From NCBI GenBank assembly GCA_965248925.1, contig CBDFLE010000006.1, positions 4,640,001 through 4,704,000 of the forward strand: DNA of 64,000 bases, written 5' to 3'. Under the pieces are notes generated by a model. The model searched no databases. It saw nothing but the letters and a program-made list of their open reading frames with translations, and had not been told where the DNA came from. Position 1 is the first letter of the stretch. Every line of letters begins with the position of its first letter. Made by a program: the position numbers and the translations under genes. This stretch comes from Candidatus Multivoradales bacterium. Its GTDB lineage: Bacteria; Acidobacteriota; Thermoanaerobaculia; Multivoradales; J023. Positions 87 to 18,900 of the stretch are shown in pieces.

Positions 87-91
87 TCAGA

Positions 92-1644
92 CCTAAACTG
101 AGCGGTTCTGAGCTTGAAGCAGAATAACCGAGGGGTTGATTCGGGGCGCCGAATGTGCGTTTTGCCAGAGAACGGGAAGTTTGAGTTGGTCCCACAGCAC
201 TTGCGTAACCTTGAGCGCTATCGCCCCGGCGTGGCAGACGATCTTTCCGGCCTGGTCGAAGAGCCGCCGACGGACGTTGGTCGGGTACGATTCCAAAGGG
301 ATCACTTCGGCGCTAACATCTTCCTTGAACGCCTCGAAGAGGAAGAACGCAACCAGGATGGTGAAGTAGTACGCCATGTTGGGGCCAAAACGCAGGAAAG
401 GCAACCGCTCGCTGGCGAAGTCTTTCAGCTCGCGATGAACCAGCTCATCCGCTCCACGTCGGTGGTAAAAGCCGATCACCTTGGCTGCATCCACGCGGTT
501 CGCGTACCCCGCCTCGCGCAGCAACCCGTCAATGTGTTGTCCTCGCCCCAGGTTGGTATAGATCACCGTGTCCGGCCGGGCGAACGCCAGGAGTCGCTGG
601 CGATCCTTGTAGAGCGGCTGGCAGAAGATCGCCCTTCGAGTCTGGCTCCAAGTCCCGCGTTGATCCTCGAATTCGAAGAAGCGCCACTGCTGGGGCTCTC
701 GGGCGAGGAGCTTCCATTCCTCTTCTGGGAGTTCCTGGGCCCGGTCACGAATTCCCTGGTACAGCTTTCCTCCGCAGACGTATCCGATCTTCAGTTCTTC
801 ACAGGCGACGAAGATCGCCTGGTCGAAAAATCCACTGTCCATGCGCAGCATAATCGGCACATCGGCCTGGAGGTGAGTACGGATGGCGGATACCGCTTGG
901 CGAATCATCTTGACGGCGTCGTTGCCGCAGTTGCAGTGCCGGTCACCTCGACGGAAGACCGCACCGATGATGAATCGCCGCCAAGTCAGCTGGAGAGGCT
1001 GGAACCCCTTGACTTTCTTGTAGGTGGGCTGGACCCCATGCCGCTTGATAGCATCATCGTTGTCCATGACCATCGAATCGAGGCCCAGGACAACGACGTC
1101 AGGTGCTGCAAGGCGCAGCCGCCACACAAACAGCTCGCGCAGAAGCTTGCGAAAGAAGTGAATGACAGGGAGTGAGAAGGCTTTGAAGAACCGCTTTACA
1201 GAGTGGGAAGACAGCAACTGATGCTGGTGGCATTCGACGATGCTGGCGTAGGCCGGATCCTTCTTCAGCGCATCGAAGTAGTTGAGGTGACGACTCGTTC
1301 CATCGAGCAAGAAGAGGAAAACCTGTTTGAAGATGTCGACGATCGGCAGACCCTTGCTGCTCTTGCGCAGTCGGCCGAATAGATGCTGCAGAAGCGGTTG
1401 GATACAAATGCTGTCCAGGTATCGCACGAAAAGGTTTAGCCCTGCTCGGCCAGTCAGAGAATCGGGGGTTACCTCAATCTTGGTGATGGCGTGCAGGCTC
1501 TTCGGGGCCGTGGTAGACTTCATCTCGATCTCCCACCTGTTGGGTTGTGGCGAGTCACTTCGCCAATTACTGCTAACGGTTTCAATGTCAGCAGTTTAGC
1601 ACAGCAGGTGGGGGATTATTGTGGTTTAAACCGCTCAATCTAGG
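92..1644 (-). mobile_element. IS1380-family insertion sequence
   Basis: Imperfect TIRs CCTAAACTGAGCGGTT (92) and CCTAGATTGAGCGGTT (reverse complement ending 1644); 5-bp target duplication TCAGA at 87-91 and 1645-1649. Confidence 0.9.
93..1523 (-). CDS. IS1380-family DDE transposase (476 aa)
   Basis: LTGRAGL N-terminus, LDS, RMDSGF, YHRRGADE motifs; ORF fills the TIR-bounded element. Confidence 0.88.
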   Translation of the reverse strand: MKSTTAPKSLHAITKIEVTPDSLTGRAGLNLFVRYLDSICIQPLLQHLFGRLRKSSKGLPIVDIFKQVFLFLLDGTSRHLNYFDALKKDPAYASIVECHQHQLLSSHSVKRFFKAFSLPVIHFFRKLLRELFVWRLRLAAPDVVVLGLDSMVMDNDDAIKRHGVQPTYKKVKGFQPLQLTWRRFIIGAVFRRGDRHCNCGNDAVKMIRQAVSAIRTHLQADVPIMLRMDSGFFDQAIFVACEELKIGYVCGGKLYQGIRDRAQELPEEEWKLLAREPQQWRFFEFEDQRGTWSQTRRAIFCQPLYKDRQRLLAFARPDTVIYTNLGRGQHIDGLLREAGYANRVDAAKVIGFYHRRGADELVHRELKDFASERLPFLRFGPNMAYYFTILVAFFLFEAFKEDVSAEVIPLESYPTNVRRRLFDQAGKIVCHAGAIALKVTQVLWDQLKLPVLWQNAHSAPRINPSVILLQAQNRSV

Positions 1645-2654
1645 TCAGAGTTATCTCAAATGAGTCTCCGGAGCCTGTGTAGGAGAACTTACCTTCCGTA
1701 TTGGGGTTGGACGCATTGACCTTTCCGTATTGAATAGTAAACTCTTCGCTGGCACTCTCCAGGCGGCTTAGTGTGACCCCGAATGACTGGTTGAATTTTG
1801 CGAGTCTTCGTGCCCGATTCTCAAGTTTCTTGTTTGCGAACTTCACGACCATGCCGGTGGGGTCAGTGAAACTCAATGGGTTGTTGAGAGCATATGCGAA
1901 TCGGTTCCAGAGTTGCGGTTTGGTTCCAGCAATCTCAAGTGGCAGAACCGGATCTACACTCAAGAACTTCCCCAACTGCGGACTGCAATACCGAGCATGC
2001 ATGTAATCGAGATCATAGGTCCCGCCAGCAAAGTCCCGCTCATGGCCGGTAAACCTGAGCTGCTCTGAGTCAAAAGCGGTACCCACCTCCTCGCCATAGG
2101 GGTAGTAATTGTGACTGAAGATCGGCGTGCCGTTGCGATCGGTGGTCAGTCGAGCACTGCCCAGGTGGTCGAGACTGAAGTGCTGCCGCGACCGAGGGCT
2201 AGCCAAGTGGGTGTCGGCGGCCAGCTGCTGGCCGCCGCGATAGACGTAATCCTTGAGGAAGCTCCAGGGATTGGTGCCCTTGGGATTCTCGAAGATCGAC
2301 AGCACTTTGGCGTCGAGATCGCGGACGGTCCAGGTCTCGACCAGGCTCTCGAAGGAGCCCTGCCAGTGGAAGGTCCACAGGCGCTCCTCGTCGGCGGTGT
2401 AGATGTAGGTGTCTTCGGGATAGTTGCGGGTGCTCATCATGCCCAAAGCATCGTAGGAGTAAAGCTGCGAGCCCCAGGAGAGGATGTTGCCGCGACCGTC
2501 ATAGACCACCGCGCCGCTGAGCCGGTTGGTGGCTCGGTTGGTGGCCAAGATGCGGCCGTTGACTCCGGTGATGCCGGTTAGGTTGCCAAATGGATCGTAC
2601 TGATAGCCCTGGTCGCCTGAGGAGTCTTCGAAGACCTTGATTCGGTTCAAGCCG
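1645..2654 (-). pseudogene. Rhs cassette 1: Rhs core C-terminus plus start of toxin tip (3' exon of the intron)
   Basis: Near-identical to 14000-14986; DHLGS, RFTGHERD, FLSVDP and NNPLSFTDPTG (DPxG) motifs. Confidence 0.9.
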
Positions 2655-2729
2655 GTCGAGTAGGCAGGGGCCGTTGCCGGCCCCCGCCCCTCTAAGAACC
2701 GTACGTGCGAGTTTCCCCGCATACGGCTC
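2655..2729 (-). ncRNA. Group II intron domains V and VI
   Basis: GAGCCGTATGCGGGGAAACTCGCACGTACGGTTC (AGC triad, GAAA loop), then GGGGCC GGCAAC GGCCCC hairpin and terminal AC. Confidence 0.93.
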
Positions 2730-2781
2730 AGGCATTCCAAAGGCCGGCTGCTTGCCGACCCGGCTTGTCGGGCTTGTGGGT

Positions 2782-4308
2782 TCAGAATGACAGCTCCAGT
2801 TGCCCAGGCCTCGTTCTTTGGCGGTCCCAATGCTCGCGGCGGCGACGCTGCCTCCAGCGTTCTTTGAAGTACTCCGCGTAACGGGCATCGTGATACCTAG
2901 CTTCGGCCCGAACTTTGATGTGCCGACGGATTCTCAGGCTGCTCGTTCGAAACTGAACGATCGTCTGTGGACGTCTTCCAGCTCGGATTTGCTTGGCATT
3001 GAGTAGCCACCTGGCGTTTCCCACGCGAGAAAAGTATCGCGTCTTGATCCATCGTAGCCCTTTGTTGTTGTGGCGCCTTCGCGCCCATCTCCAGAGCTGT
3101 CCGAAGATGAAGTGGTCGATATTCTGGAAGGTCTTCGAGGCAACGAGATGACGGAACTGGTGAGCCCAGCCGCGGAGGACGCGGTTGAGCTGGTGCAGTA
3201 GATTTTCCGTCTTGGTTCCGAAGTTCCGACGAATGAGGCTCCGCGTTCTTTGGATGAGATCCTTGACGTTGGCCCGCATTGGGCGCATCAGGAGCTTGCC
3301 GTTGTACTTACGTACATTGGCTCCAAGGAAATCGAAACCGTCGTCGATATGCACGATCTGGGACTTCTTTTCGGACAGTCTCAGACCGCGTTCTTTGAGA
3401 AAGGCGGTAACCGCGGGGACGACGTTCTCTTCCAGGAGTTCCCTGGTTCTGGCCGTGGCCACGAGATCGTCTGCGTACCGAATGACATGGACCTTGGCGG
3501 CGGGCTCCTTCCCTTTTGGGCGTGGAACCGCCGAAAGGACATGAGCTTCTAAACCGTCCAAGGTCATATTCGCCAAGGTTGGCGAGAGGATTCCTCCTTG
3601 GGGAGTGCCTTGCTCAGTGGGGTGGAACATCTCACCTTCGAAATATCCGGCCTTCAGCCATTTCCGGAGTAGACTTCTATCCATCGGGATATGGTCTAGT
3701 AACCATTGATGGCTGATTTGATCAAAACAGGCTTCGATGTCCGCGTCGAGCACCCATTCAGCTGCGTTGCCCTTAGCCAATACCATGTGGCATCGCACAT
3801 GGGCATCTTGGATCGAACGGGCTTTGCGGAATCCATAGGAATTTGGATCCGCCCTTTGCTCGGCTACTGGCTCGAGAGCCAGCAGATGAAGAGCTTGCAT
3901 CGCTCGATCGTGCATACACGGGATACTCAGCGGACGTTTTCCGCCGTTGCGTTTTGGAATGTGGATTCGCCGTAGTGGCTGAGGCTGATAGCCTCGCCGC
4001 TTCAGCTCGTCCACGGCCTGCATCTTCTGCCGAGAGGTGTTCCAGAGAACACCGTCGATTCCCGGCGTGCGCTTTCCCTGGTTCGTCGTCACCCGACGAA
4101 CCGCCAGCCGCTTCGCAGGCAGCGCCTGAACCAAAATTCGCTGGAGGGAGCGCACCTTCCCCCAGCGTTCTTTCCGAGCTGCCTTCGCAATACGAACTTG
4201 TAGCCGCTCAACGGTTTTGTACGTCCACCGCCAGTCGATATCCGACCAGCTTTCGACACCGCCCGAAGGTGCGCCGACCGCGAATTTCTTCGGGTCATCC
4301 ATCGCCAT
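2782..4308 (-). CDS. ltrA: Group II intron reverse transcriptase/maturase without HNH endonuclease
   Basis: TPGIDG, RPLSIP, SYGFR, PQGGILSP and YADD motifs plus X domain; GGAGG precedes ATG 4308; no C-terminal HNH. Confidence 0.93.
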   Translation of the reverse strand: MAMDDPKKFAVGAPSGGVESWSDIDWRWTYKTVERLQVRIAKAARKERWGKVRSLQRILVQALPAKRLAVRRVTTNQGKRTPGIDGVLWNTSRQKMQAVDELKRRGYQPQPLRRIHIPKRNGGKRPLSIPCMHDRAMQALHLLALEPVAEQRADPNSYGFRKARSIQDAHVRCHMVLAKGNAAEWVLDADIEACFDQISHQWLLDHIPMDRSLLRKWLKAGYFEGEMFHPTEQGTPQGGILSPTLANMTLDGLEAHVLSAVPRPKGKEPAAKVHVIRYADDLVATARTRELLEENVVPAVTAFLKERGLRLSEKKSQIVHIDDGFDFLGANVRKYNGKLLMRPMRANVKDLIQRTRSLIRRNFGTKTENLLHQLNRVLRGWAHQFRHLVASKTFQNIDHFIFGQLWRWARRRHNNKGLRWIKTRYFSRVGNARWLLNAKQIRAGRRPQTIVQFRTSSLRIRRHIKVRAEARYHDARYAEYFKERWRQRRRREHWDRQRTRPGQLELSF

Positions 4309-4632
4309 TCCTCCGCAGAATCGGTTCTCCAAGCGCTCTTACAAAGAAACACCCGCTGGTGTTAGCGGCTACGGGAAAGCGTACGTAGTTGGTGTAGAGC
4401 GCAGACCAGCACCATTCTCTAGATCCCGCCCAACGGAATCATCATCCCCGCCGCAGGCGGGTCCGTGATCTTGCAGAATAGGGCTGTGGACGGAAGAGAC
4501 GAAGGTCCAGGGGCAATTTGACTAGGCGGTCGAAACCCCTGGACCTCCCCAAGAAGCGCGACCGATAGGCCGGCTCGCGCTAAGTATCTTCGGAAATCAT
4601 CGTCTCGTCTACCCTCTGTCCAGCTGGAGACG

Positions 4633-5055
4633 GTGCGCGAGGACTACCGGTGGTATTTCTGTGCTGGGTGTCGAGCCTCGGTCGAGATCTGCTCGCACTG
4701 TGACCGGGGGCAGATTTACTGTGGCCAGGAGTGCTCCAGCGCCGCCCGCCGCGAGTCCTTGCGAGTTGCTGGTTGGCGCTACTGCCAGACCCCTCAAGGT
4801 CGCCGAAATCAGGCCGAGCGGCAGGCCCGATGGCGTCAGCGCCAGCAGGCCGAAGCGCAGAAAGTAACGCATCAGGGTACCCCACCCCCAGAGCCCCCAG
4901 TCATCCTCACTACGCCACCCCCGAGTGGGTCCAAGGACCGCCTTGCCCCGCTCGGCGAGCCGCGATGCTGCTTCTGTGGCGTTCTCTGCCGTCCATTCGT
5001 CCGTCTGGATCCCCTCAGACGACGACGGCGGCGCAAACGGAGAGATCGAAGATGA
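4633..5055 (+). CDS. Cys-rich putative zinc-binding IS21 accessory protein
   Basis: CAGC, CSHC, YCGQEC and CCFC motifs; stop overlaps istA start (ATGA). Confidence 0.7.
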   Translation: MREDYRWYFCAGCRASVEICSHCDRGQIYCGQECSSAARRESLRVAGWRYCQTPQGRRNQAERQARWRQRQQAEAQKVTHQGTPPPEPPVILTTPPPSGSKDRLAPLGEPRCCFCGVLCRPFVRLDPLRRRRRRKRRDRR

Positions 5056-6551
5056 TTTCAGAAGAGAAGAAACAGGAGATCCTGCGCTACCACTTCGTGG
5101 AGAAATGGCGGCCGGGCACGATCAGCCGGCAGCTCGGAGTTCACTACGAGACGGTGCAGCGAGCCCTGCGGGATGCCGGGGCGCCGACGGCGATTTCGAC
5201 CCGCAGCTCGATAGTTGATCCTTACCAGCCCTTCATGCACCAGACCTTGGAGAAGTTCCCGAGCCTCCCGGCGAGTCGGCTCTACCAGATGGTCAAGGAG
5301 CGCGGCTACTCAGGAGGTGAGGATCATTTCCGTCACCTGGTGGCTCGAATAAGACCTCGTCGCAAGGCTGAGGCTTACCTGCGCCTGACCACCTTGGCTG
5401 GCGAGCAAGGGCAAGTGGATTGGGGCCATTTCGGCTCTATCAAGGTGGGAGGCGCGGAGCACAGCCTGATGGGCTTCGTTCTGGTAGCGAGCTACTCGCG
5501 TCGGATCTTCCTCCGGTTCTTCCTCAACGCGCGGATGGAGAATTTTCTGCGCGGTCATGTGGCCACCTTCGAGAGATGGCAAGGTGTCTTCAAGATCTTG
5601 CTCTACGACAATCTGAAAAGTGTGGTGCTCGAACGCCGGGGCGAGGCGATTCGCTACAACCCCAAGTTCCAGGAATTTGCCGGCCACTACCGATTCGAGC
5701 CACGGCCAGTAGCGATCGCTCGGGGCAACGAGAAAGGACGTGTAGAGCGCGCCATTCGCTATATCCGAACTTCGTTCTTCGCCGGTCGGGAGTTCAAGGA
5801 TCTCGACGATTTGAATCGTCAAGCCGAGGCATGGTGTGAGGGCTGGGCAGATCGTCGGAAATGGCATCAGGACCCCAGCAGAACGGTCAGCGAAGCCTTC
5901 GAGGACGAGAGGTCCTACCTGATCGAGCTGCCCACCGAGCCGTTTCGGACCGAGGAGCGCGGCGAGGCTCACATTGGCAAGACGCCGTATGCACGCTTTG
6001 ATCGCAACGATTACTCGGTGCCGTTCGATCGGGTGCGCCGCACTCTGACGGTGCGCGCCAGCCTCTTAGAGGTACGCATCTTCGACGGTCACAAGGTCGT
6101 GGCGTGCCATCCCAGATCCTTCGATCGCAGCCAGCAGATCGAGAACCCCGAGCATATCCAGGAGCTTGTCGATCACAAACACCGGGCGAAGAAACATCGG
6201 GGGCTCGATCGTCTCAGGCGCGCGGCTCCAAGGTGCGAGGCGCTGTTGCAGCGACTCGCCGAGAGAGGGCTGCCTCTGGGAACCGCTACCGCAGCACTCC
6301 TGCGTTTGCTCGACCACTACGGCACCGAGGCTCTCACCTCGGCCGTCGAAGAGGCGCTCGGCAACCACTCCTGCGACGTCCAGGCCGTTCGCCTGGTGCT
6401 CGAGCGCCGTGAGCGCGAGCGTCAGGCCACGCCGATGCTTCCTCTCCGCCTACCCAAAGATCCCAGAATCCGGGATCTCGACGTGCGCCCTCATGATCTC
6501 AACGACTACGACCGTCTCAGCCGCCAGGAGGATCCTCATGACGACGACTGA
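5052..6551 (+). CDS. istA: IS21 transposase IstA
   Basis: N-terminal HTH, GEQGQVDWG, LYDN, KGRVER, NDYSVP motifs. Confidence 0.95.
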   Translation: MISEEKKQEILRYHFVEKWRPGTISRQLGVHYETVQRALRDAGAPTAISTRSSIVDPYQPFMHQTLEKFPSLPASRLYQMVKERGYSGGEDHFRHLVARIRPRRKAEAYLRLTTLAGEQGQVDWGHFGSIKVGGAEHSLMGFVLVASYSRRIFLRFFLNARMENFLRGHVATFERWQGVFKILLYDNLKSVVLERRGEAIRYNPKFQEFAGHYRFEPRPVAIARGNEKGRVERAIRYIRTSFFAGREFKDLDDLNRQAEAWCEGWADRRKWHQDPSRTVSEAFEDERSYLIELPTEPFRTEERGEAHIGKTPYARFDRNDYSVPFDRVRRTLTVRASLLEVRIFDGHKVVACHPRSFDRSQQIENPEHIQELVDHKHRAKKHRGLDRLRRAAPRCEALLQRLAERGLPLGTATAALLRLLDHYGTEALTSAVEEALGNHSCDVQAVRLVLERRERERQATPMLPLRLPKDPRIRDLDVRPHDLNDYDRLSRQEDPHDDD

Positions 6552-7302
6552 AGATCTGCTCATCCGGGCCAAGAAGCTCGGGCTGCACGGTCTGGTCGAA
6601 GATTGGAGTCAACTTCAGAACCAGCCTTGGGTGCTGCCTTTGATCGACCGAGAGGAGATAGTGCGACACCAGAGGAGCCTCGAGAGGCGAATCCGCAACG
6701 CACACATCGGCACCTTCAAGCCGATGGCCGACTTCGACTACAAGTGGCCACGAAAGATCGATCGCCTGATGGTGGAAGACCTCTTCAACTTCCAATGGCT
6801 CGAAGAAGGAGCCAACGTCATCCTCTTCGGTCCCAACGGCGTCGGCAAGTCGATGATCGTTCAGAATCTCACCTACCAGGCCTTGTTGCGTGGCGCCACC
6901 GGACGCATGCTCACCGCCAGCGAACTGCTCAACGACCTCGCGGCACAAGAGAGTTCCAGGGCTCTGCAGCGGCGCCTGGCCCTCTACACCCGGCCCGATC
7001 TGCTGGCCATTGACGAGCTAGGCTACCTGTCCTACGACCATCGCCACGCCGACCTCCTCTTCGAGGTGGTAAGCCGGAGGTATCAGAAGAAATCTATTCT
7101 GCTGACCACCAACAAACCCTTCTCCGAGTGGCAGAGCGTCTTCGCCTCGGCCACCTGCGTGGTCACCCTTGTCGATCGGCTCGTACATCACGCCGAGATC
7201 GTCACCATCGAAGGCGACTCCTATCGGCGCAAAGAAGCAGAAGAGGAAAAGAAACGGCGAGCACAAGACCGCGCGCGGCGGCGAAAGGCGAAGGTGTCAT
7301 GA
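6538..7302 (+). CDS. istB: IS21 AAA+ helper ATPase IstB
   Basis: Walker A GPNGVGKS, Walker B LLAIDELGY, DRLVHH, GDSYR. Confidence 0.95.
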   Translation: MTTTEDLLIRAKKLGLHGLVEDWSQLQNQPWVLPLIDREEIVRHQRSLERRIRNAHIGTFKPMADFDYKWPRKIDRLMVEDLFNFQWLEEGANVILFGPNGVGKSMIVQNLTYQALLRGATGRMLTASELLNDLAAQESSRALQRRLALYTRPDLLAIDELGYLSYDHRHADLLFEVVSRRYQKKSILLTTNKPFSEWQSVFASATCVVTLVDRLVHHAEIVTIEGDSYRRKEAEEEKKRRAQDRARRRKAKVS

Positions 7303-7640
7303 GCAAGTGCGACTACGTCCAGGCGATTCTCAGAGCTTACCTTGAGCAGCAGGAGACCCCTGCTCAGGCAAGACCCACTGACCGCGTACTCGCTCTTGAT
7401 CTCTACCAGCAGCAAGTCTCCATCGATCAGATCAGAGCAGCCATTCTCCTCGCAGCCGGTCGACGAATCCAGCGATCTCCAGAGGCACCCAAGCTAGCCA
7501 AGATCCGATCCCTCGCCTACTTTGCGCCGGTGATTCGAGAACTCGATGGCCTTGAAGACATCGAGGGGTATCTCAAGTATCTCCAAAGCACCGCTCGGCG
7601 CGAGCAGGGGCTGCACACCGGCTCGGATTACACCGAATAG
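7299..7640 (+). CDS. Hypothetical IS21 passenger protein (113 aa)
   Basis: ATGA overlap with istB stop; lies inside the right TIR. Confidence 0.65.
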   Translation: MSKCDYVQAILRAYLEQQETPAQARPTDRVLALDLYQQQVSIDQIRAAILLAAGRRIQRSPEAPKLAKIRSLAYFAPVIRELDGLEDIEGYLKYLQSTARREQGLHTGSDYTE

Positions 7641-7958
7641 ATACGTTCTTGCTCAGCCGCTAACAGCTGGACGTTGGCTCGCTTTCGCGCCGGGCAAATT
7701 CCGAACCCGTATCCGATCCATTACAGACCGGCATTCGCTTCTTCCAGCGTCCTACTCCGGCACATCCAATAGCCTCCCTTGCGGTCAGCCTGCCTGGTTG
7801 ACGATAGGAGTCGGAACGATCCCGGGCCGTTCGCTGACGCGGTGGGGCGGGAAAGATCGGACTCTCACCTTCGTAGGCGGACATACCAGGTTTACAAGTT
7901 CCGCTTTCGGAGTACGTAGCTTTAGGTATCAGCTTTAGACCGGGTGATCGACGACCGC

Positions 7959-7984
7959 GGGCCACGACTACGAGAACGTGGCCC
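7959..7984 (-). ncRNA. Intron EBS1 stem-loop
   Basis: 8-bp stem GGGCCACG/CGTGGCCC; loop UUCUCGUAGU contains UCGUAGU, complementary to the last 7 nt of the 5' exon (ACUACGA). Confidence 0.8.
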
Positions 7985-8295
7985 CTGCCACCTTGCCGTT
8001 TGGCCAGGCCTGTCAGCCCCTTTGGCCCTTCATCATAACGATCCCTGCGCTGATTCACATGTGTTTGCCATGGCTACTACCAGACGCTATCCCGGATCGG
8101 GGCTCCCAGGAGCCTTGACGCCTCGCGGTGTCAAGACCGCACCGAGGTGCTTCGCGCATTGTCTGGCCCGCTCTTTATTCAGGGCCGTAGGTTCATCTGG
8201 CGGTACAGATGGTCCTCGCTCATGGGATGGGAAATCAAATAATTGCATTTCGGAGGACAACTCCTTTCATATAGAAAAGCGGCTTCTTGCCGCAC

Positions 8296-8493
8296 TCGTA
8301 GTTGCTGTAGGTGATCTGCTGCGCCTCGGGGTGATTCTCTGAGAGGAGAAAGCCTCGACCGTCGTACTCGAAGGTACGAATCTGGGTGGTACTTCCGCCC
8401 TTCAGATTGGCCTGTTTCAACCGATCGCCGGAGTCGTAGAAGTAGGTCGCCAGCAGGCCGCCCGCGGGCTCGGATACCCGCACCAGGCGGCCG
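8296..8493 (-). pseudogene. Rhs core fragment (5' exon of the intron)
   Basis: RVSEPAGGLLATYFYDSGDRL...ITYSNY, nearly identical to 17990-18187; no start codon context. Confidence 0.88.
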
Positions 8494-9135
8494 ATAATGT
8501 GCCTGGCACCTGTTCCGTCCCGCCTCAGCCCTCAGTGTCACCAGGCTCTCCACCGCTACGGCGCCGCTGGCGTTCTGAACACTGTCGGCGTTGGCTCCTC
8601 CACCTTTGGCGACGTTCCGAGGCCCTCCTTCTCGGTCCCGAAGACTACGCACGACACTCTTCCCGACTCAAGGTCGACCCGATACTCCACGAGGTCTGGC
8701 CTTGTTATGACCCTTAGTACCACGCGGTATGTGCCTTCGTCGACGAACGCTGTGATCACGTTTGGAAAAGCATCCCATATTTCCAGTAACTCGCAACCTT
8801 CCGGCGCAGGCCAGTAGGCCATGGTCCCATTTAGTGTCAGTCTTCCAAATGACAAGCAGGGCGTTGGGTCTCTATGACTGACAAAGAAGATGGAATCTCG
8901 ACTTGGATTCGTAACAGTCGAGAGAATCAATTCCTCTTTGCGCTTGTTGCCAAGTTGCCTCAGAAAACTGCCAGATGCCGAAAAGATTGAAAAACTGCTT
9001 TCGTCATGTCCGGGCTCGGTGAATAGGGCTGAGAAGGAATTTTCCAACGGCACCGACAAATGGCCTGCTGATTCCAGACCTCCTGACCTACCCCTCCTAA
9101 CCCTCTGAAAACACAGGACCGCCCCTCAGAGGTGG

Positions 9136-9813
9136 TGCGGACCCAAAACTGTCCGCTTTTTTCGGTGCCGAGGCATGATCGAGCATGGCACTGACGAGCG
9201 AGCACACCGTCCTGTTCCCAGACCACGCCGGGGTCCCCGATGGGGTTGTGGTGATCAACGACCGCTGCCGCCTCCAGCAGAGGGGCGGCTATCGGGTGGT
9301 GGTGGTCAGCGGCATGCCGCTCGCTCACTTCGCTGCCGGCGACAGGACAGGCGAGGCCCACGCGATGGTGAGTCTCGTTGAATTGGGCTGGGCACAGCAA
9401 CGCGAGGTGGCCCTTGCGTTCGCTTGTGATGTGCGGACTGTGCGCCGGAATCAGCGCCGCTTCGAAGAAGGTGGGCTGGCTGCTCTGGGCCGGCCGCGCG
9501 GTTTTCCCCGGGGTCAGTCTCGGGTAGCGCAGGGCCGCCTGGACGCGGTCAACGGCTGGAAGGCCGAGGGTGTGTCGAATCGCGAGATTGGCCGGCGGCT
9601 GGGCATCGATGAGAAGGCCGTTCGCAAGCTCGCCAAGCGCCTGGGCTGGAAAGAGCGGTCGGTAGTGCAGATGACGATGCCCTTCGAGAGTGCGGACCCA
9701 AAACTGTCCGCCTCTGATGAGCAGCAGGTCGACGGCCCCCTGAAAACTGCGGATCTTGCGCTCGACGCTGAGGGTGGCGGTGACCCAGCGGCTGCGGACC
9801 CAAAACTGTCCGC
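9136..9813. repeat. Three exact copies of a 21-bp dyad TGCGGACCCAAAACTGTCCGC
   Basis: Copies at 9136-9156, 9691-9711 and 9793-9813; GCGGAC-N8-GTCCGC inverted repeat. Confidence 0.9.
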
Positions 9814-11578
9814 TTCTGCGTCCGAGCAAGATCAGGTTCCCCTCTCGCTGGACCTCGATCCAGCGGATCGCGCCAGCGATCGGCTGCTGGCGAGGCTGGG
9901 ATTCCTCGATGATGCGGCGCCGATCTTCGGAGCGGCGACCCAGCTACCGGGCGCCGGTGCTCTGCTGGCGATTCCCGCCCTGGTGGACAGCGGCGTGCTC
10001 TCCATCGCGCAGGAGCTGTACGGCAGCATCGGGCCGGCCTTCTATGGGCTGCGCACCACTCTGGTAACCCTGCTGCTGATGGCACTGTTGCGGGTCAAGC
10101 GACCCGAAGGGCTCAAGGAGCGCTCACCCCGGCATTTGGGTCAGCTTCTCGGGCTCGACCGAGCGCCGGAAGTGAAAACCTTGCGCAACAAGCTCGCTCG
10201 GCTGGCCGCGCATGGCCTGGCCGCGGATCTCGGTCGCGCCCTCGCTCAGCGCCGGGTCGCCACCAGGGGCCATGCCATGGGCTTCCTCTACGTGGACGGG
10301 CATGTGCGCGCCTACCACGGTGGCCGAGAGATTCCCAAGACACACGTAGCGCGGATGCGGATCGCGATGCCGGCCACCACCGACTACTGGGTCAACGATG
10401 CTGAGAGCGAGCCTCTCTTCGTGGTCCCCACCGAGGCCAACAAGGGGCTTGCGACGATGCTTCCCCTCATTCTCGAAGAGGTACGAAAGCTACTCGGAGA
10501 CCGGCGAGTCACCGTCGTCTTCGACCGTGGGGGTTGGAGCCCGAAGCTGTTTGCGAAGCTCATCGCCAAGAAGTTCGACATCCTCACATACCGAAAGGCC
10601 CCCTTTCGTCCGGTGCCGTTGAGCAAGTTCGGGCAGATCAAGGACACGATCCACGGGCGGAAGCTCGAGTACCTCCTCGCCGATCAGCGTATCTACCTCG
10701 AGTATGGCCCGAGGAAGAAGCGCAAGCGGCTGTACCTGCGCCAGGTCACCCGCCTCTGCGACAACGGCCACCAGACGTCCATCATCACCTCCCGCCGCGA
10801 CCTCTCCACACTCGAGGTCGCCTACCGCATGTTCGATCGTTGGAGGCAAGAGAACTTCTTCAAATACCTGCGCGAAGAATTCGCACTCGATGCCCTGGTG
10901 GACTATGGCACCGAGCCAGCGGACGCTGCCCGCGATGTGCCGAATCCCGAGCGCGGCAAGATCAATGCAGAGCTGCGCAAAGCTCACGCACATCTCGAGC
11001 AGCTCCGGGCCCACATCGGGATCGCTGCTCTTGAAAACCGCGAGGATCGGCGGCGCACGATGCGCGGATTCAAGATCGCCAACGCCGCCATCTCCGCCAG
11101 GGTCCGGGCAGCGATAGAGCAGATCACCGAACTCGAGAACCAGCGCGCGACCCTCCCCGTCCGCGTCCCCGTCCAAGAGGTCGTCGAAGCGGATGTCATC
11201 AAGCTGTCCGTCGAGCGCAAGCACCTCACCGATATTCTCAAGATGGTCGCCTACCAGGCCGAAGGTGATCTTCTCCGGCTCCTATCACCCCACTACCGCC
11301 GCACCGAGCAGGAGGGACGCACCCTGATCCAAAGCGCTTTCGCGGCCGGCGGCGATATGGAGGTTACCGACACCGTGCTGCTCCTTTCCATCGACCCGCT
11401 CAGCTCTCCCCACAAGACGGCGGCGATCGCCGCCGTCTGCGAAGAACTCAACGCTACCGCCACCCACTTCCCCGGCACCGAGCTACGGATGCGGTTCGCG
11501 ATCAAGAAGGCGCCACCCCGGAGCCTGGCCTTCCCAGGGCCTCGGAACACCTCCGGAGAGGCTCAACCGGACATTTGA
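9185..11578 (+). CDS. Large putative DDE transposase (797 aa) with tandem N-terminal HTH domains
   Basis: YVDGH, VFDRGG, RWRQENFFK (IS4/IS1380-like DDE spacing); HTH-like QREVALAFACDVRTV and SNREIGRRLGIDEKAV. Confidence 0.82.
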   Translation: MALTSEHTVLFPDHAGVPDGVVVINDRCRLQQRGGYRVVVVSGMPLAHFAAGDRTGEAHAMVSLVELGWAQQREVALAFACDVRTVRRNQRRFEEGGLAALGRPRGFPRGQSRVAQGRLDAVNGWKAEGVSNREIGRRLGIDEKAVRKLAKRLGWKERSVVQMTMPFESADPKLSASDEQQVDGPLKTADLALDAEGGGDPAAADPKLSASASEQDQVPLSLDLDPADRASDRLLARLGFLDDAAPIFGAATQLPGAGALLAIPALVDSGVLSIAQELYGSIGPAFYGLRTTLVTLLLMALLRVKRPEGLKERSPRHLGQLLGLDRAPEVKTLRNKLARLAAHGLAADLGRALAQRRVATRGHAMGFLYVDGHVRAYHGGREIPKTHVARMRIAMPATTDYWVNDAESEPLFVVPTEANKGLATMLPLILEEVRKLLGDRRVTVVFDRGGWSPKLFAKLIAKKFDILTYRKAPFRPVPLSKFGQIKDTIHGRKLEYLLADQRIYLEYGPRKKRKRLYLRQVTRLCDNGHQTSIITSRRDLSTLEVAYRMFDRWRQENFFKYLREEFALDALVDYGTEPADAARDVPNPERGKINAELRKAHAHLEQLRAHIGIAALENREDRRRTMRGFKIANAAISARVRAAIEQITELENQRATLPVRVPVQEVVEADVIKLSVERKHLTDILKMVAYQAEGDLLRLLSPHYRRTEQEGRTLIQSAFAAGGDMEVTDTVLLLSIDPLSSPHKTAAIAAVCEELNATATHFPGTELRMRFAIKKAPPRSLAFPGPRNTSGEAQPDI

Positions 11579-13623: not shown

Positions 13624-15272
13624 CTAAGGTTTGTGAGCTTTTATGTTTTTAATAAGATGATGTTGCGGCACTATTCTTACGTTCACCGGCTTCAGGCCAC
13701 CGTAACCTCTCAAGGAAATATAGTTCGCAAGGTTTTGCGCTCTCGCGTATCCGGTGATATCCCCTGCCATCCCCTTCTGTCCGCCCTGGCGCTGCATTTT
13801 GGTGGAAACGTCTATCGCCGCCTGAAAGCCTCTGGCTTCGTCATAAAGATCTAGTGCAAACGGTATCCATGCCCCTTTGTGGTGTATGAAACCAAACTCG
13901 CCCCCAAGATAGTCGACGGCGTGCTGTGTTTCATGGGCAAGGTTCTGATCTATAGTGAAACTACTCGGAGAGCTAAGAAGGGTAATCACGAAAGTGTCTC
14001 CCTTTCCAGAATAGCTGAATAAGCCCTCGGCCGTGGAACTCCTTGATTTGACTTTTCCAAATTTAACAACAAACTCTTCTGTGGCAGCCTCTAATTTGCC
14101 AAGAGAAACCCCGAACGACTTATTAAACTTCGCCAGCCTTCTAGCCTTGTTCTCAAGCTTCTTGTTTGCGAACTTCACGACCGCGCCAGTTGGGTCAATG
14201 TAGCTCAATGGGTTGTTGAGGGCATATGCGAACCGGTTCCAGAGTTGCGGTTTGGCTGCAGCAATCTCAAGTGGCAGAACTGGATCAACACTCAAGAACT
14301 TCCCCAGCTGCGGACTGCAATGCCGAGCATGCATGTAGTCCAAATCATAGGTCCCGCCAGCAAAGTCCCGCTCATGGCCGGTAAACCTGAGCTGTTCTGA
14401 ATCAAAGGCGGTACCCACCTCCTCGCCATAGGGGTAGTAATTGTGGCTGAAGATCGGCGTGCCGTTGCGATCGGTGGTCAGCCGAGCACTGCCCAGGTGG
14501 TCGAGACTGAAGTGCTGCCGCGACCGAGGGCTAGCCAAGTGGGTGTCGGCGGCCAGCTGCTGGCCGCCTCTATAGACGTAATCCTTGAGGAAGGTCCAAG
14601 GATTGGTGCCTTTGGGATTCTGGAAGATCGACAGCACCTTGGCGTCGAGATCACGGACGGTCCAGGTCTCGACCAGGCTCTCGAAGGAGCCCTGCCAGTG
14701 GAAAGTCCACAGGCGCTCTTCGTCGGCGGTGTAGATGTAGGTGTCTTCGGGGTAGTTGCGGGTGCTCATCATGCCCAAAGCATCGTAGGAGTAAAGCTGC
14801 GAGCCCCAGGAGAGGATGTTGCCGCGACCGTCATATACTACCGCGCCGCTGAGCCGGTTGGTGGCGCGGTTGGTGGCCAGGGTGCGGCCGTTGACGCCGG
14901 TGATGCCGGTTAGATTGCCGAACGGATCGTATTGATAGCCTTGGTCGCCGGAGGAATCTTCGAAGACCTTGATTCGGTTCAAGCCGTCGTAGGTGTAATG
15001 ATCGTCGAAGACGCCGGCAAAGCGGCGGCGGACCAGGTTTCCGGATCCATCGTAACTATGATCACCCAAGCTGGTGGCTACCGTGCCGGTAACACTGATC
15101 CTGCTCGGCCGGGGTCGGCCTAGATCTTCGTCCCAAACATCGGTGAGGCCATTGCTATGCACGACGTTGGCGATCATACCGCTTGGATGGTAGGTCAGCG
15201 AACTAGCGTAGCCCGACACCGCCACCAGGTAACCCTGGGCGTGGGTGAAGCTGCGGTTGGGCGAGGGCGCTG
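13624..15272 (-). pseudogene. Orphan Rhs cassette 2: truncated core plus HExxH metallopeptidase toxin tip
   Basis: Core near-identical to 16600-17570; NNPLSYIDPTG, then AT-richer tip with LAHETQH...DEARG; no credible start. Confidence 0.88.
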
Positions 15273-15935: not shown

Positions 15936-18900
15936 AAATAGGCCCTTTGCTAAACGGCAAGTAAGGCTTTCCTGTCTGATCAGTCGCACCACCATATTGA
16001 CCTCTCATTTCCAGACCGAGTTGTTTGCGAATTTTGTTCATTTTGACTACCGTAGGACCCTTCGCTGAGGGGTACCTGGAGGTCAATGAACGCGGCGGGT
16101 CTTTCAGGCCTAAGAAGGAGTGTGCTAGTTCGTGCAGAAAGATCATTCCTGCGTCAAAAGTAGCAGGTGAATTATTGCCATAGTTGATTTTTGCGATATC
16201 GCCATAGTCCAAAAATATCAGGTTGCCTACGCTTTTCCCCATATTGGTAGCCGTCGACCCGTTTCTCGGCAGCGCTGAAAACACAGTGCTGCTATTGATC
16301 GCATCAGAGACAAAATCGGCCGCCAACGCACTGCCTTGGGAAGACCCGTCTGCGCCGGTGAGAGCCCCCCCTGAGACAAGTGACCCCTCGTCCGTCAGGC
16401 TAAGATCGAGCCCTGTTTTCTCCCTGAGCTGTTCCACAAGCTCTGTTTTCTGTTCGTCAGTGAGACTCGCAAGAGAGATCTTGCGACCGTCTCGGTCAAC
16501 GAATCGGAGTGGATTGTTCAACCCGTAGGTGAATGCATTCCAGGTTTGTGGTAGTCCTCTGTCGACATTCGCGGCCTCGGGGTCGACACTCATGAACCTG
16601 CCCAAATGCGGACTGTTATGCCGAGCATGCATGTAGTCGAGGTCAAAAGTCCCGCCAGCAAAATCTCGCTCGTGCCCAGTAAACCTGAGCTGCTCGGAGT
16701 CGAAGGCGGCGCCCACCTCCTCGCCATACGGGTAGTAAGTGTGGCTGGCGATCGGCGCACCGTTGCGGTCGGTAGTCAGCCGCGAACTGCCCAGGTGGTC
16801 AAGGCTAAAGTGCTGTCGCGACCGGCGGCTCGTCAAGGCGGTGTCGGTGGCCAGCAGCTGGCCGCCGCGATAGACGTAATCGTTGAGGAAGGTCCAGGGA
16901 TTGGTGCCTTTGGGGTTCTCGAAGATCGACAGCACTTTGCCGTCAAGATCGCGGACGGTCCAGGTCTCGACCAGGCTTTCGAAGGAGCCCTGCCAGCGGA
17001 AGGTCCACAAGCGCTCTTCGTCTGCGGTGTAGATGTAGGTGTGCTCGGGATAGTTGCGGGTGCTCATCATGCCTAAAGCATCGTAGGAATAAAGCTGCGA
17101 CCCCCAGGCGAGGATGTTACCGCGACCGTCGTAGACCACCGCGCCGCTGAGCCGGTTCGTGGCTCGATTGACGGCCAAGGTGCGGCCGTTGACTCCGGTG
17201 ATGCCGGTCAGATTGCCGAACGGATCGTATTGATAGCCTTGGTCGCCGGAGGAATCTTCGAAGACCTTGATTCGGTTCAAGCCGTCGTAGGTGTAATGAT
17301 CGTCGAAGATGCCGGCAAAGCGGCGGCGGACCAGGTTTCCGGATCCGTCATAACTATGGTCACCCAAGCTGGCGGCTACCGTGCCGGTGACACTGATCCT
17401 GCTCGGCCGTGGCCGGCCTCGGTCTTCGTCCCAAACATCGGTGAGGCCGTTGGTGTGCACGACGTTGGCTATCATACCGCTTGGATGGTAGGTCAGTGAA
17501 CTGGCGTAGCCCGGCACCGCTACCAGGTAACCCTGGGCACGAATGAAACTGCGGTTGGGCGAGGGCGCTGTCACGTTGGGGCAATTTGGGATGCCGGAGC
17601 AGCGCGGGTAGCCCAGCTGGGTTACCTGGCCGAGGCCGTCGAAAATCCACGACTGGTTGAAGTCGGTCACTAGCGTACCGTTGACCTCGGCGCGGGTGCG
17701 CCTGCTTGAGACCCGGCCGTCGCGGCCCTTGTAGGTGTAGATCTCGGTGACTTTCGCGTCGAGCACCTTGCCGGGGAGGAGGGGGCTAAAGACGTAGTTA
17801 TGGCGCACCGCCTTCTCTAGCTTGCCTCGGCGTCGGTTGCTGCCCACGTTGGTGGTGGCGTAGGTCAGCTCTTTGAGCACCCTATTGCCGGCCGAGCCTT
17901 CGCGCATCAGGGTCAGTCGCTCGGCCCGATCAAAGGTGTAGGACAGGTCGACGCCGGCCTGCACCCGCCGGCGGGCCTTGCCGCGAGAATCGTGGTTGCT
18001 GTAAGTGATCTGCTGCGCCTCGGGGTGATTCTCGGAGAGGAGAAAGCCTCGGCCGTCGTACTCGAAGGTACGAATCTGGGTGGTACTTCCACCCTTCAGA
18101 TTAGCCTGCTTCAGCCGATCGCCGGAGTCGTAGAAGTAGGTCGCCAGCAGGCCGCCCGCGGGCTCGGACACCCGCACCAGCCGGCCGTAGCCGTCATAGA
18201 TCTCTTCGGTGGCAAACTGGGTTTGGTTCACGCTGCCGTTGCCAGCCACCGAGGTCCCCAGCCGCACCCAGCGCTTCAACCGCCGATCGCCAACGTAGGT
18301 CACTCTCACATCGTGGGTAGCGCCGTCTGGCGGCACGATCTTGGTCACCCGGCCAAAGGCGTCGTGGTCGAAATAAGTGCGGTGGACTGTGCCCGCGGGG
18401 CCGGTACCACTCGGACTCGCTCTGAGTCCAACCTTCGCCGCTGTAGGCGGTCACCCGTTTGGCCCACAGCCCGCTAGGTTGGCGCTGACGCTCTAAGATC
18501 AACCGTCCGATACCGTCGAAGCTTAGCTCGCGCTTGGCCAACGAGGCGGTGGTGTCGCGGTCGATCTGACGGATCTCGACCTTGGGGCCAGCCGAGTTGA
18601 AAGTGTTGGTGTAGGCGTAGAGCGTCCATGCGCCATGGCCGGCGGAGGGCTTGAATTCGGTTCGGCGGCCAAGAAGGTCATACTTGAGACCGGTGACTAT
18701 TCCAGAGCGGTCGGTGCTCGCACTGATCAGGCCGGTGTTCCGGTCCACCGTCTGGAGCACTTCGAAGAAGGGGAAGCGGCTGCCGTCGAGTTTCAAGTAT
18801 TGGCTTGAGCGGCCCGAGCCGTACTGCCATTTGTGCTCCAGGGCGACGTGGGTGGTGTTGTGCGCCGGATCCAGCGCGCAGACGTTGCCGGGCGCCGCCA

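What the first reader, a model, noticed from the sequence alone, without database searches (positions are those of the whole stretch)
2655..8302. Group II intron whose EBS1 targets Rhs YD-repeat codons, with exons from two different YD sites
Seen: the 5' exon ends AACTACGA (Tyr-Asp codons) and the loop at 7967-7973 reads UCGUAGU, a perfect 7-nt complement. In the intact paralog the 5' exon maps to 17990 and the 3' exon to 17284, so 705 nt (235 codons) are missing. The 3' exon's native upstream sequence is also CTACGA, so both junctions are YD sites and splicing would give in-frame YSNYD-GLNR. Known: EBS1-IBS1 pairing sets group II intron targets. Inference: two intron copies homed into different YD repeats and recombined. 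Because all such sites share codon phase, the intron could act as a frame-preserving shuffler of Rhs modules and toxin tips. Further candidate sites (TCGTAG on +) lie at 2451, 14987, 17285 and 18128.
Basis: partly seen in the sequence, partly recalled or inferred. Interest (0 to 1): 0.85.

Follow-up and report, generated by a model that had tools for sequence, protein, structure and literature searches.

The report
Group II intron in Rhs Tyr-Asp codons
A decayed mobile group II intron sits in a leftover fragment of an Rhs toxin gene, aims at the Tyr-Asp codons of Rhs repeats, and joins two Tyr-Asp sites that lie at least 705 bases apart in intact copies, most likely as the scar of recombination between two intron copies.

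Summary
A group II intron lies on the minus strand at 8295..2655. The 5' exon ends ACTACGA. The loop at 7973..7967 reads UCGUAGU. The exons match positions 17990 and 17284 of an intron-free paralog, so 705 nt are missing. Both junctions follow CTACGA in the same codon phase.

- The intron is 5.6 kb only because a 3.3-kb IS21 sits in domain IV.
- The host is a truncated, stop-bounded Rhs fragment between insertion sequences (IS).
- The window's "intact" paralog is itself frameshifted.

The EBS1 assignment is well supported. The homologous hairpin loop covaries with the 5' exon in three related intron groups. An 85%-identical intron in another family (G132) also sits after TACGA in a very different Rhs gene, with contiguous exons.

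The genome holds three near-identical intron copies, all at the same Rhs site and all damaged. Only the window copy keeps a 3' end.

The exon gap fits a second, ectopic insertion at the downstream Tyr-Asp site followed by intron-intron recombination (about 0.5). A pre-existing deletion allele cannot be excluded (about 0.2). The "frame-preserving shuffler" idea rests on this one event in a dead fragment. Interest is moderate.

The parts
8296..8493 (-). 5' exon: a 198-nt Rhs core fragment ending in IBS1 ACUACGA (8302-8296). Homology to every paralog stops at 8493.
   Evidence: BLAST to 6 paralogous sites at 93.9-97.0%. Junction sequences. The translation shows stops just upstream of GRLVRVSEP.
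7666..8295 (-). Intron 5' part: GUGCG, then domains I-III and the start of domain IV.
   Evidence: RF02012 at 8212-8084. 99.8% identical to copies B and C. Aligned with relatives.
7960..7983 (-). EBS1 hairpin. The loop UUCUCGUAGU holds EBS1 UCGUAGU at 7973-7967.
   Evidence: Sequence. Fold. The homologous loop covaries with exon ends in relatives.
4360..7665 (+). IS21-family insertion sequence inside intron domain IV, about 50 nt upstream of the IEP start. It is antisense to the intron. IstA is at 4731-6551 and the IstB ORF at 6166-7302. Terminal inverted repeats read TGTTAGCGGCT. The 5-bp target duplication CCAGC lies at 7670-7666 and 4359-4355.
   Evidence: Pfam Mu-transpos_C_2 3.5e-23 and IstB_IS21 8e-57. 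6 full copies in the genome, 5 of them identical. Ends and duplication. Copies B and C lack it at this place; short-read contigs also join 4354 to 7666.
2782..4308 (-). Intron-encoded protein, 508 aa, open. It has RVT_N, RT with YADD at aa 278, and a maturase domain. No endonuclease domain.
   Evidence: Pfam RVT_1 5.7e-41, RVT_N 3.3e-29, GIIM 1.1e-19. Translation. 100% identical to copy B's protein.
2655..2731 (-). Domains V and VI. They carry the AGC triad and a bulged A 7 nt from the 3' end; the intron ends AC.
   Evidence: RF00029 66.5 bits. Fold. This is the only copy of the last 69 nt in the genome.
1640..2654 (-). 3' exon: Rhs core end (motif NPLSFTDPTGM) plus the start of a toxin tip. 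It begins at 'site 2'. It ends about 140 codons short of its closest homolog because an IS begins at about 1645.
   Evidence: Pfam RHS_repeat 8.2e-10. 95.0% identical to the orphan at 14986. Translations. IS boundary.
17285..17989 (-). The 705 nt that separate site 1 (17990) from site 2 (17284) in the window's intron-free paralog.
13624..15272 (-). Orphan Rhs module with an HExxH tip. It is the closest relative of the 3' exon, and its site 2 is at 14986.
8494..8510 (-). Motif GGTGCCAGGCACATTAT abutting the point where Rhs homology of the 5' exon starts. The same motif follows the truncation of intron copy C.
90..1645 (-). IS with a DDE transposase (ORF 93-1523) that cuts off the Rhs tip.
   Evidence: Pfam DDE_Tnp_1_4 1.7e-30. 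3 full copies in the genome.

Best explanation
This is a decayed copy of a mobile bacterial group II intron without an endonuclease domain. Without the IS21 it is about 2.33 kb. Its EBS1 (UCGUAGU) pairs with the codons Asn-Tyr-Asp (ACUACGA) of Rhs YD repeats.

The lineage homes into Rhs genes. The intron spread to the same site ('site 1') of three diverged Rhs paralogs of this genome. A sister intron in another family sits at another Tyr-Asp/Glu site of a different Rhs gene.

In the window copy the 3' exon does not continue site 1. It starts at a downstream Tyr-Asp site ('site 2', CCUACGA|C). The most likely path, which is inferred and not shown, has three steps:
1. A second copy reverse-spliced ectopically into site 2, either of the same gene or of a downstream orphan module. 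Site 2 offers 6 of 7 IBS1 pairs.
2. Homologous recombination between the two direct 2.3-kb intron copies removed one copy and everything between them. That is 705 nt if the event was intragenic, and about 3 kb if it ran from a main gene to an orphan.
3. Later an IS21 landed in domain IV, and the flanking Rhs sequence was truncated on both sides.

The locus is now an inert fragment. My odds are about 0.9 for the intron with YD-codon targeting, and about 0.5 for the two-copy recombination step.
For: **Intron identity.** Searches show GUGCG...AC, domains V/VI, a bulged A, and RT with YADD plus maturase.

**EBS1.**
- There is a 7/7 Watson-Crick match with the exon end in a conserved hairpin loop.
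- The same loop reads UAACG in 12 copies of one relative group. Their exons end CGUUA in 7 of 12, CGUUG in 3, CAUUA in 1 and CGUUC in 1.
- It reads AACGG in 7 copies whose exons end NCGUU.
- It reads UCGUAAU in G132, whose exon ends GCUACGA.

**Homing rather than co-duplication.** The intron copies differ at 1 of 631 positions and at 0-3 of 1303-1636. Their 198-nt 5' exons are only 93.9-97.0% alike.

**Independent Rhs targeting.**
- The G132 intron (IEP 85% identical, open) sits in ...TCCTACAGCTACGA|...|GGATCCCCTCG.
- All 10 of 10 intron-free G132 paralogs examined read straight across that site. A normal insertion of this lineage therefore leaves exons contiguous.

**The gap is real.**
- 4 of 4 full paralogs hold the 705-706 nt.
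- The 3' junction is bridged without difference by a short-read contig covering 2507-2726.
- The IS21 has an intact 5-bp duplication, so the two intron halves belong together.

**An EBS1-guided event at the 3' side.** The 3' exon starts exactly after CTACGA in 4 of 6 homologs and after CTTACGA in the other 2. Only 8 CTACGA sites lie on that strand in about 6.4 kb of Rhs sequence, so a random breakpoint would land there about 1 time in 800.

**No intron-free deletion junction** exists in the genome.

**Prior knowledge.** Ectopic recombination between group II intron copies is an accepted source of rearrangement (passage seen in PMC3522654). Retrotransposition to sites matching only the IBS motifs is documented (passages in PMC2504315).
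Against: - No copy at site 2 and no gene with two introns was found. Only one intron 3' end exists in the genome. No further member of the lineage turned up in 300 genomes of the order, 401 of the phylum, or the metagenome scan.
- The final sequence is identical under the pre-existing-deletion model.
- Site 2 lacks the candidate IBS2 (CAGC) that site 1 and the G132 site share.
- EBS2 and EBS3 were not pinned down, so the fitness of site 2 as a target is not established.
- 932 perfect ACTACGA 7-mers exist in the genome and only 3 are occupied. IBS1 alone therefore does not make a site.
- The intron copies are too alike to show a recombination mosaic.
Confidence: 0.5

Rival explanations
1. The deletion came first. 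An Rhs allele lost the 705 nt by slippage or unequal exchange between the two CTACGA (Tyr-Asp) motifs. That created ...AACTACGA|CGGCTT..., which keeps the complete 5' target of site 1. The intron then homed into it like into any site-1 allele.
For: - Both sites share A-N-CTACGA, and both are ends of YD repeats in the same phase.
- The hybrid junction keeps IBS1 and the candidate IBS2.
- It has C at +1, the base seen at +1 in 4 of 4 G009/G016 relatives and in one empty G132 paralog, C264.
- This path needs only ordinary homing, which the intron has done at least three times.
Against: - It requires a deletion whose breakpoint coincides to the base with the homing site. The only support is 6 nt of microhomology across 705 nt.
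- No such intron-free allele is in the genome, and 4 of 4 full paralogs keep the segment.
- The 3' exon is closest to orphan-type modules, which lack site 1. This hints at a larger main-to-orphan join, which is harder to obtain by slippage.
Confidence: 0.2
2. A single insertion resolved at the RNA or cDNA level. The intron reverse-spliced into site 2. The cDNA then ran on into 5'-exon RNA of a site-1 donor transcript, or the RT switched template. Repair against the upstream site-1 region looped out the 705 nt, so a second DNA copy never existed.
For: - It gives the same junctions as observed.
- An endonuclease-less IEP implies priming at replication forks and host-dependent resolution of the 5' junction (background passage in PMC2504315).
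Against: - The same paper states that bacterial group II intron insertion shows no co-conversion of flanking exons.
- Nothing in the sequence tells this apart from the two-copy model.
Confidence: 0.1
3. Artefact or coincidence. Either the assembly mis-joined two intron copies, or an unrelated deletion happened to end at the intron's 3' end.
For: - The intron (3 copies) and the IS21 (6 copies) are long near-identical repeats.
- The region is full of rearrangement scars.
Against: - The IS21 is flanked by a matching 5-bp duplication within a continuous intron sequence.
- Short-read contigs of 4 runs from one sample, possibly the source of the assembly, cover the 3' junction without difference and reach 15 nt into the 5' exon.
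- The genome holds only one intron 3' end, so there is no second copy to mis-join.
- A random breakpoint directly after CTACGA has odds of about 1 in 800.
Confidence: 0.05

Closest known systems
Endonuclease-less bacterial group II introns that home into multi-copy DNA (for example RmInt1 of Sinorhizobium in ISRm2011-2; recalled, not fetched here)
   Same: - The IEP has RT and maturase but no En domain.
- The target is chosen by EBS-IBS pairing.
- Several near-identical copies sit at the same site of a repeated host sequence.
- Truncated copies are common.
   Different: - The target is a protein-coding repeat motif (the Tyr-Asp codons of Rhs), not an insertion sequence.
- The class was not determined here.
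- A convincing EBS2 was not found.
Group IIC and IIC-attC introns, and class E (IIB) introns found in attC arrays (background read in PMC7923331)
   Same: - More distant relatives of this intron (IEP 41-57% identical) sit after palindromic or hairpin sequence.
- They have a short IBS1 (CGUU or CGUUA). Joined exons read GTTA|GGC, which looks like an attC core.
- As in IIC introns, no clear EBS2-IBS2 pair emerges.
   Different: - The RNA is larger, about 800 nt without the ORF.
- Domain V has 34 nt.
- EBS1-IBS1 is 7 bp here.
- No significant hairpin precedes the Rhs sites (z from -0.01 to +1.18).
- The IIC-attC consensus site is TTGT/T at R'' on the bottom strand, not GTTA/GGC.
Ectopic homologous recombination between copies of a transposable element, including group II introns (statement in PMC3522654, citing work on Wolbachia that I did not read)
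   Same: Two direct copies of a 2.3-kb element would delete what lies between them and leave one hybrid-flanked copy. That is the structure seen here.
   Different: Both flanks here are the element's own target motif in one codon phase, so the product would still splice to an open frame. The intermediate was not observed.
Rhs tip replacement by recombination between a main rhs gene and downstream orphan modules (recalled from the Rhs literature, not read here)
   Same: The locus has a main gene, an orphan module and a further fragment. The 3' exon carries an orphan-type tip.
   Different: Ordinary tip switching uses homology in the Rhs core and keeps the core full length. Here 235 codons of core are missing and the join lies inside an intron.

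Membership tests
Group II intron | Conserved ends 5' GUGYG and 3' AY | tested here: met
   GUGCG at 8295-8291 and ...CGAC ending at 2655. Both ends are shared with G132 and the relatives.
Group II intron | Domain V with the catalytic AGC triad, and domain VI with a bulged branch-point A | tested here: met
   RF00029 66.5 bits against a gathering score of 40. The fold shows a 34-nt domain V (GAGCCGUAU...) and an unpaired A 7 nt from the 3' end.
Group II intron | Domain I architecture | tested here: met
   RF02012 64 bits against a gathering score of 34. A consensus fold of 7 related sequences keeps the main helices.
Group II intron | EBS1-IBS1 pairing between a domain I loop and the last bases of the 5' exon | tested here: met
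   7 of 7 pairs here. Three different loop/exon states occur at the homologous hairpin in relatives.
Group II intron | EBS2-IBS2 and EBS3-IBS3 (or delta-delta') pairings | tested here: inconclusive
   - The only candidate EBS2 is 4 bp: GCUG in the loop about 50 nt upstream of EBS1, against CAGC next to IBS1 in A and G132.
- The +1 base varies: C in A; G in the G132 intron copy and in 8 of its 10 empty paralogs, C in one, T in one; T or C at native site 1.
- No covarying partner was identified.
Group II intron | Intron-encoded reverse transcriptase/maturase in domain IV | tested here: met
   RVT_N, RVT_1 and GIIM. YADD at aa 278, open 508-aa frame.
Group II intron | Splicing and mobility | not testable with these tools
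   - No RNA run holds the stretch.
- All 3 genomic copies are damaged: A by the IS21, B lacks the last 69 nt, C is cut in the IEP.
Rhs / YD-repeat protein gene (host of the intron) | RHS repeats and a core-end motif followed by a variable tip | tested here: met
   Pfam RHS_repeat in the 3'-exon ORF and in paralogs. NPLSFTDPTGM is followed by a tip homologous to the HExxH tip of the orphan at 14986-13624. That this motif marks the Rhs core end is recalled, not tested.
Rhs / YD-repeat protein gene (host of the intron) | A complete open gene | tested here: not met
   - Rhs homology starts only 198 nt upstream of the intron, with stops just before it.
- The tip is cut by an IS.
- Intact paralogs have 1671-1683 open codons.
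IS21 family (insert inside the intron) | IstA transposase plus IstB ATPase, terminal inverted repeats, short target duplication, several copies | tested here: met

The most novel reading that the evidence does not exclude
A group II intron lineage has specialised on the Tyr-Asp codons (UACGA) that recur in one phase throughout Rhs genes. Copies at different YD sites would serve as portable homology. Recombination between them would fuse an Rhs shell to a downstream orphan toxin module, or delete or duplicate blocks of repeats, and splicing would restore an open frame every time. The window would hold the first footprint of such an intron-mediated join between Rhs modules. Its 5' exon is of the main-gene type, and its 3' exon carries the orphan-type HExxH tip.
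Probability: 0.12. Interest if true: 0.75.

Novelty: new member of a known kind. Interest (0 to 1): 0.42.

Why it matters
Bacterial group II introns mostly live in mobile DNA or behind terminators. A lineage whose homing site is a codon pair repeated many times in a family of polymorphic toxin genes would be a new niche. I found no paper on it in three full-text searches of the library ('group II intron' with 'Rhs', 'polymorphic toxin' and 'YD repeat').

Every such site shares one codon phase, so any intron-mediated join between sites stays in frame after splicing. That gives a simple route to exon shuffling in bacteria that can be tested.

The present case is only a scar in a dead fragment. 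It shows that such a join can arise, not that it is used. The uninterrupted copy in G132 offers material for a direct test.

Tried and rejected
**Collection scans and runs**
- The genome-contig scan with the 17-nt intron start was too unspecific. Only 1 of the 119 (L168) holds the intron (88% and 86% identity to the two halves). It is probably the G132 record; I did not check. The scan says nothing about other genomes.
- The metagenome scan with the IEP found 564 relatives and kept the best 80. All are at most 56% identical, so there is no close member.
- The phylum sample gave 1 of 401 genomes with a match at E <= 1e-20, and that one is G000 itself.
- No RNA holder was listed for the stretch, so nothing can be said about expression or splicing.
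- Laying the contigs of 4 runs from one sample mainly reproduced the genome's own repeat copies. The joint 4354/7666 is the IS21-free copies B and C. Loose ends at 8296 are the intron-free paralogs, and the one at 2724 is copy B. No new arrangement appeared.

**EBS2 and EBS3**
- A complementarity scan gave several 5-9-nt matches. One is UCGACGAUC upstream of site 2 against GGUCGUCGA just 3' of the EBS1 hairpin. About 0.3 such matches are expected by chance. I do not rely on it.
- The exon segment UCACCU pairs with AGGUGG at the base of the EBS1 arm. It also mimics that arm's own 3' strand, so I rejected it as EBS2.

**Hairpins and exon comparisons**
- The test for a IIC-like hairpin upstream of the Rhs sites was negative (z from -0.01 to +1.18).
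- Protein comparison of the G132 exons with a G000 paralog (24-35% identity) was too weak to place the G132 site. The DNA paralogs of G132 settled contiguity instead.
- The tree of 3'-exon homologs has weak support (0.28) for the A-with-main-genes node. The claim that A is of orphan type rests on pairwise identity, mostly in positions 401-705.
- The motif GGTGCCAGGCACATTAT is not a general boundary of orphan modules. It is absent upstream of the orphan at 15272.

**Other limits**
- The intron class (A-F, CL, ML) was not determined, because no reference IEPs were at hand.
Supplementary files of papers were not opened.

Full report
**What is there.**

Rfam finds a group II domain V/VI at 2731-2655 and a domain I-IV model at 8212-8084, both on the minus strand. 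Read on that strand, the 5' exon ends ...TACAGCAACTACGA at 8296. The intron begins GTGCG at 8295 and ends ...CCTACTCGAC at 2655. The 3' exon begins CGGCTTGAACCG at 2654.

The element is 5641 nt long only because an IS21-family insertion sequence occupies 7665-4360.
- It encodes IstA and IstB on the plus strand (Pfam).
- It has inverted ends TGTTAGCGGCT and a 5-bp duplication CCAGC.
- It has six full copies in the genome.
- It lies about 50 nt upstream of the start of the intron-encoded protein, in domain IV.

Without the IS21 the intron is about 2.33 kb. The intron-encoded protein (4308-2782) is open. It has RVT_N, an RT domain with YADD and a maturase domain, and no endonuclease domain. Domain VI has a bulged A 7 nt from the end.

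**The host is a wreck, not a gene.**
- Rhs homology of the 5' exon covers only 8493-8296. Just upstream lie stops and the motif GGTGCCAGGCACATTAT. Beyond that come 576 nt of unique sequence and, from 9070, an IS with about 30 copies.
- The 3' exon runs through the Rhs core end into a toxin tip. It stops about 140 codons short of its closest homolog, next to a DDE-transposase IS at 90-1645.

**Copies in the genome (7.98 Mb, 6 contigs).**

BLAST finds three intron copies:
- A is the window copy.
- B lies at C6:2420193-2422454. It has no IS21 there, lacks the last 69 nt, and is followed by foreign sequence.
- C lies at C5:1074622-1072694. It is cut inside the intron-encoded protein, next to the same motif and an IS21.

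All three follow the same Rhs site...AGCAACTACGA. The intron copies differ at 1 of 631 positions and at 0-3 of 1303-1636. Their 5' exons are only 93.9-97.0% alike. The intron therefore entered already diverged paralogs by homing.

Four intron-free paralogs exist.
- Two read the perfect site (AACTACGA|T... and AACTACGA|C...) and are empty.
- Two read AACCACGA.

With every copy damaged, there may be no active donor left. Only copy A keeps a 3' end, so the only 3' junction in the genome is the odd one.

**EBS1.**

UCGUAGU (7973-7967) lies in the 10-nt loop of a 7-bp hairpin (folded with its basal stem). It is the only 7-nt complement of the exon end in the 5' part of the intron. About 0.04 such matches are expected in 630 nt.

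Relatives confirm the assignment:
- Seven ORF-less or partial relatives in genomes G033, G009 and G016 have AACGG in the homologous loop. Their exons end NCGUU.
- Twelve ORF-bearing copies from a genus whose intron-encoded protein is 54-57% identical have UAACG. Their exons end CGUUA in 7 of 12, CGUUG in 3, CAUUA in 1 and CGUUC in 1.
- The closest relative is in G132 (another family of the same order; intron-encoded protein 85% identical and open; RNA about 88% identical). Its loop reads UCGUAAU and its exon ends GCUACGA.

EBS2 and EBS3 could not be fixed. The only recurrent candidate is GCUG in a loop about 50 nt upstream of EBS1, against CAGC next to IBS1 in A and G132. Site 2 lacks CAGC.

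**Independent support for Rhs targeting, and a control.**

The G132 intron interrupts an Rhs gene that is only 24-35% identical in protein to the G000 paralogs. Its junctions read ...ACCTCCTACAGCTACGA | intron | GGATCCCCTCGTCCCC.... Ten of ten intron-free paralogs fetched from G132 read ...TACGA followed directly by (G/C/T)GATCC....

This lineage therefore sits after the Tyr codon and the first two bases of Asp/Glu in Rhs genes of two families. A normal insertion leaves the exons contiguous. The lineage is rare. No further member was found in 300 genomes of the order (intron-encoded protein search), in 401 of the phylum (DNA search), or among the best 80 of 564 metagenome relatives.

**The discontinuity.**
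- The 5' exon corresponds to 17990 of the paralog and the 3' exon to 17284. All 4 full paralogs hold the 705-706 nt between.
- Native site 2 reads CATTACACCTACGA|CGGCTTG in 4 of 6 homologs and ...ACTTACGA| in the other 2. Both sites are cut after the second base of the Asp codon, so the spliced product would read ...YSNYD-GLNR... in frame.
- The 3' exon is closer to the two orphan modules (95.0% and 93.0%) than to the main genes (88.8-91.9%), and it shares the orphan's tip. Orphans start 285 nt upstream of site 2 and have no site 1. The lost DNA may therefore have been about 3 kb, from site 1 of a main gene to site 2 of the next orphan, rather than 705 nt. The signal comes mainly from the last 300 nt before the tip, so this is a lead only.

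**Weighing the explanations.**

A breakpoint that falls exactly between the last intron base and a base preceded by CTACGA is not chance. Eight such motifs lie on this strand in about 6.4 kb of Rhs sequence. Two routes explain it.

1. *Ectopic insertion plus recombination.* The intron reverse-spliced into site 2, with six of seven EBS1 pairs. Recombination between the two direct intron copies then removed the interval.
2. *Deletion first.* A deletion between the two CTACGA motifs arose first, and the intron homed into the junction.

Route 1 needs a rare ectopic event followed by an easy recombination between 2.3-kb repeats. Both steps are known for group II introns (passages in PMC2504315 and PMC3522654). 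Route 2 needs a 6-nt microhomology deletion that happens to hit the homing site to the base. I give about 0.5 to route 1, 0.2 to route 2, 0.1 to a cDNA-level variant and 0.05 to artefact or coincidence.

Misassembly is unlikely.
- The IS21 has a matching target duplication in a continuous intron.
- A short-read contig bridges the 3' junction without difference.
- There is no second 3' end to mis-join.

Nothing in hand separates routes 1 and 2. The genome holds neither intermediate.

**The 'shuffler' idea.**

The logic is sound. IBS1 is itself Tyr-Asp in a fixed phase, so any two sites are phase-compatible. The evidence is one event in a fragment that cannot make an Rhs protein. The genome has 932 perfect ACTACGA 7-mers, about the number expected for a random sequence of this size, and 4658 CTACGA. 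Only three are occupied. In the window the 7-mer occurs 13 times against 2.6 expected. Pairing with IBS1 alone is therefore not sufficient, and the element is not a frequent visitor of YD sites.

**Comparison and novelty.**

By every structural test it is an ordinary bacterial group II intron without an endonuclease domain. Its class was not determined. Its more distant relatives sit after palindromes at CGTT(A)|G sites that look like attC cores (background in PMC7923331). Together with the weak EBS2, this suggests a lineage that relies mainly on a short EBS1. No hairpin stands out upstream of the Rhs sites.

I found no paper on group II introns in Rhs YD repeats in three full-text searches of the library. 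I saw the search listings and passages of PMC5888179 and PMC11342252, which proved irrelevant. I rate it a new member of a known kind, with a neat but unproven rearrangement footprint.

**Limits.**
- There are no RNA data.
- The runs laid come from one sample that may be the source of the assembly.
- EBS2, EBS3 and the class are open.

Noticed in passing
window 8494-8510 (minus); G000 C5:1072683; arrays at C6:1089096-1089330, C6:2177234-2177499, C6:1206409-1206660, C5:1397792-1397971, C6:765100-765245: The 11-nt core GGTGCCAGGCA of the motif GGTGCCAGGCACATTAT (inner core TGCCAGGCA; variants such as ...CACCTTAT) occurs 70 times in the genome. It is often preceded by AAA(A/T)A. It often sits in odd 'stuttered' tandem arrays with partial re-duplications. 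One copy abuts the start of the 5' exon's Rhs homology. Another follows the truncation point of intron copy C. It may be the end of an unknown mobile element or a recombination site. It is not present at the orphan boundary at 15272.
   Followed up: partly
window 8295-8281 versus 17985-17970 (minus strand): The intron's first bases (GTGCGGCAAGAAGCCGC, a hairpin GCGGC/GCCGC) share the 8-mer GCGGCAAG with the native 3' exon of site 1 (TTCTCGCGGCAAGGCCCGCCG). The shared 8-mer is offset by 3 nt. BLAST even extends the exon alignment 11 nt into the intron. The hairpin is a conserved intron feature with covariation in relatives (GCGAC/GUCGC). The resemblance may be chance.
   Followed up: no
L015-L018, L022 (G033, G009, G016); L027-L046 (genus g85): Relatives of the intron include ORF-less copies of about 1 kb, several per genome. 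ORF-bearing copies start CUGCG instead of GUGCG. These sit after palindromic sequence in sites whose joined exons read CGTTA|GGC, like the core of an integron attC site. Whether these are real attC arrays was not checked.
   Followed up: partly
window 18401 and about 20040 (minus-strand Rhs gene, 15922 to beyond 19984): The window's main Rhs gene has a 1-nt insertion near 18401 relative to the open paralog at C6:1052757, and its frame is closed by a stop near 20040. It is a pseudogene or carries an assembly error.
   Followed up: partly
window 9070 to about 11600 (+); 4360-7665; 90-1645: There are three different insertion sequences within 12 kb. One starts at 9070 and has about 30 near-identical copies (ORF 9185-11578). 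The IS21 has 6 copies. The DDE_Tnp_1_4 element has 3 full copies. The genome is heavily colonised by recently active IS.
   Followed up: partly
window 13624-15272 (minus): The orphan Rhs module has a C-terminal tip carrying an HExxH motif (HETQH), which suggests a metallopeptidase-type toxin. A 121-codon ORF lies directly downstream (13622-13257) and could be its immunity gene. Neither was searched.
   Followed up: no
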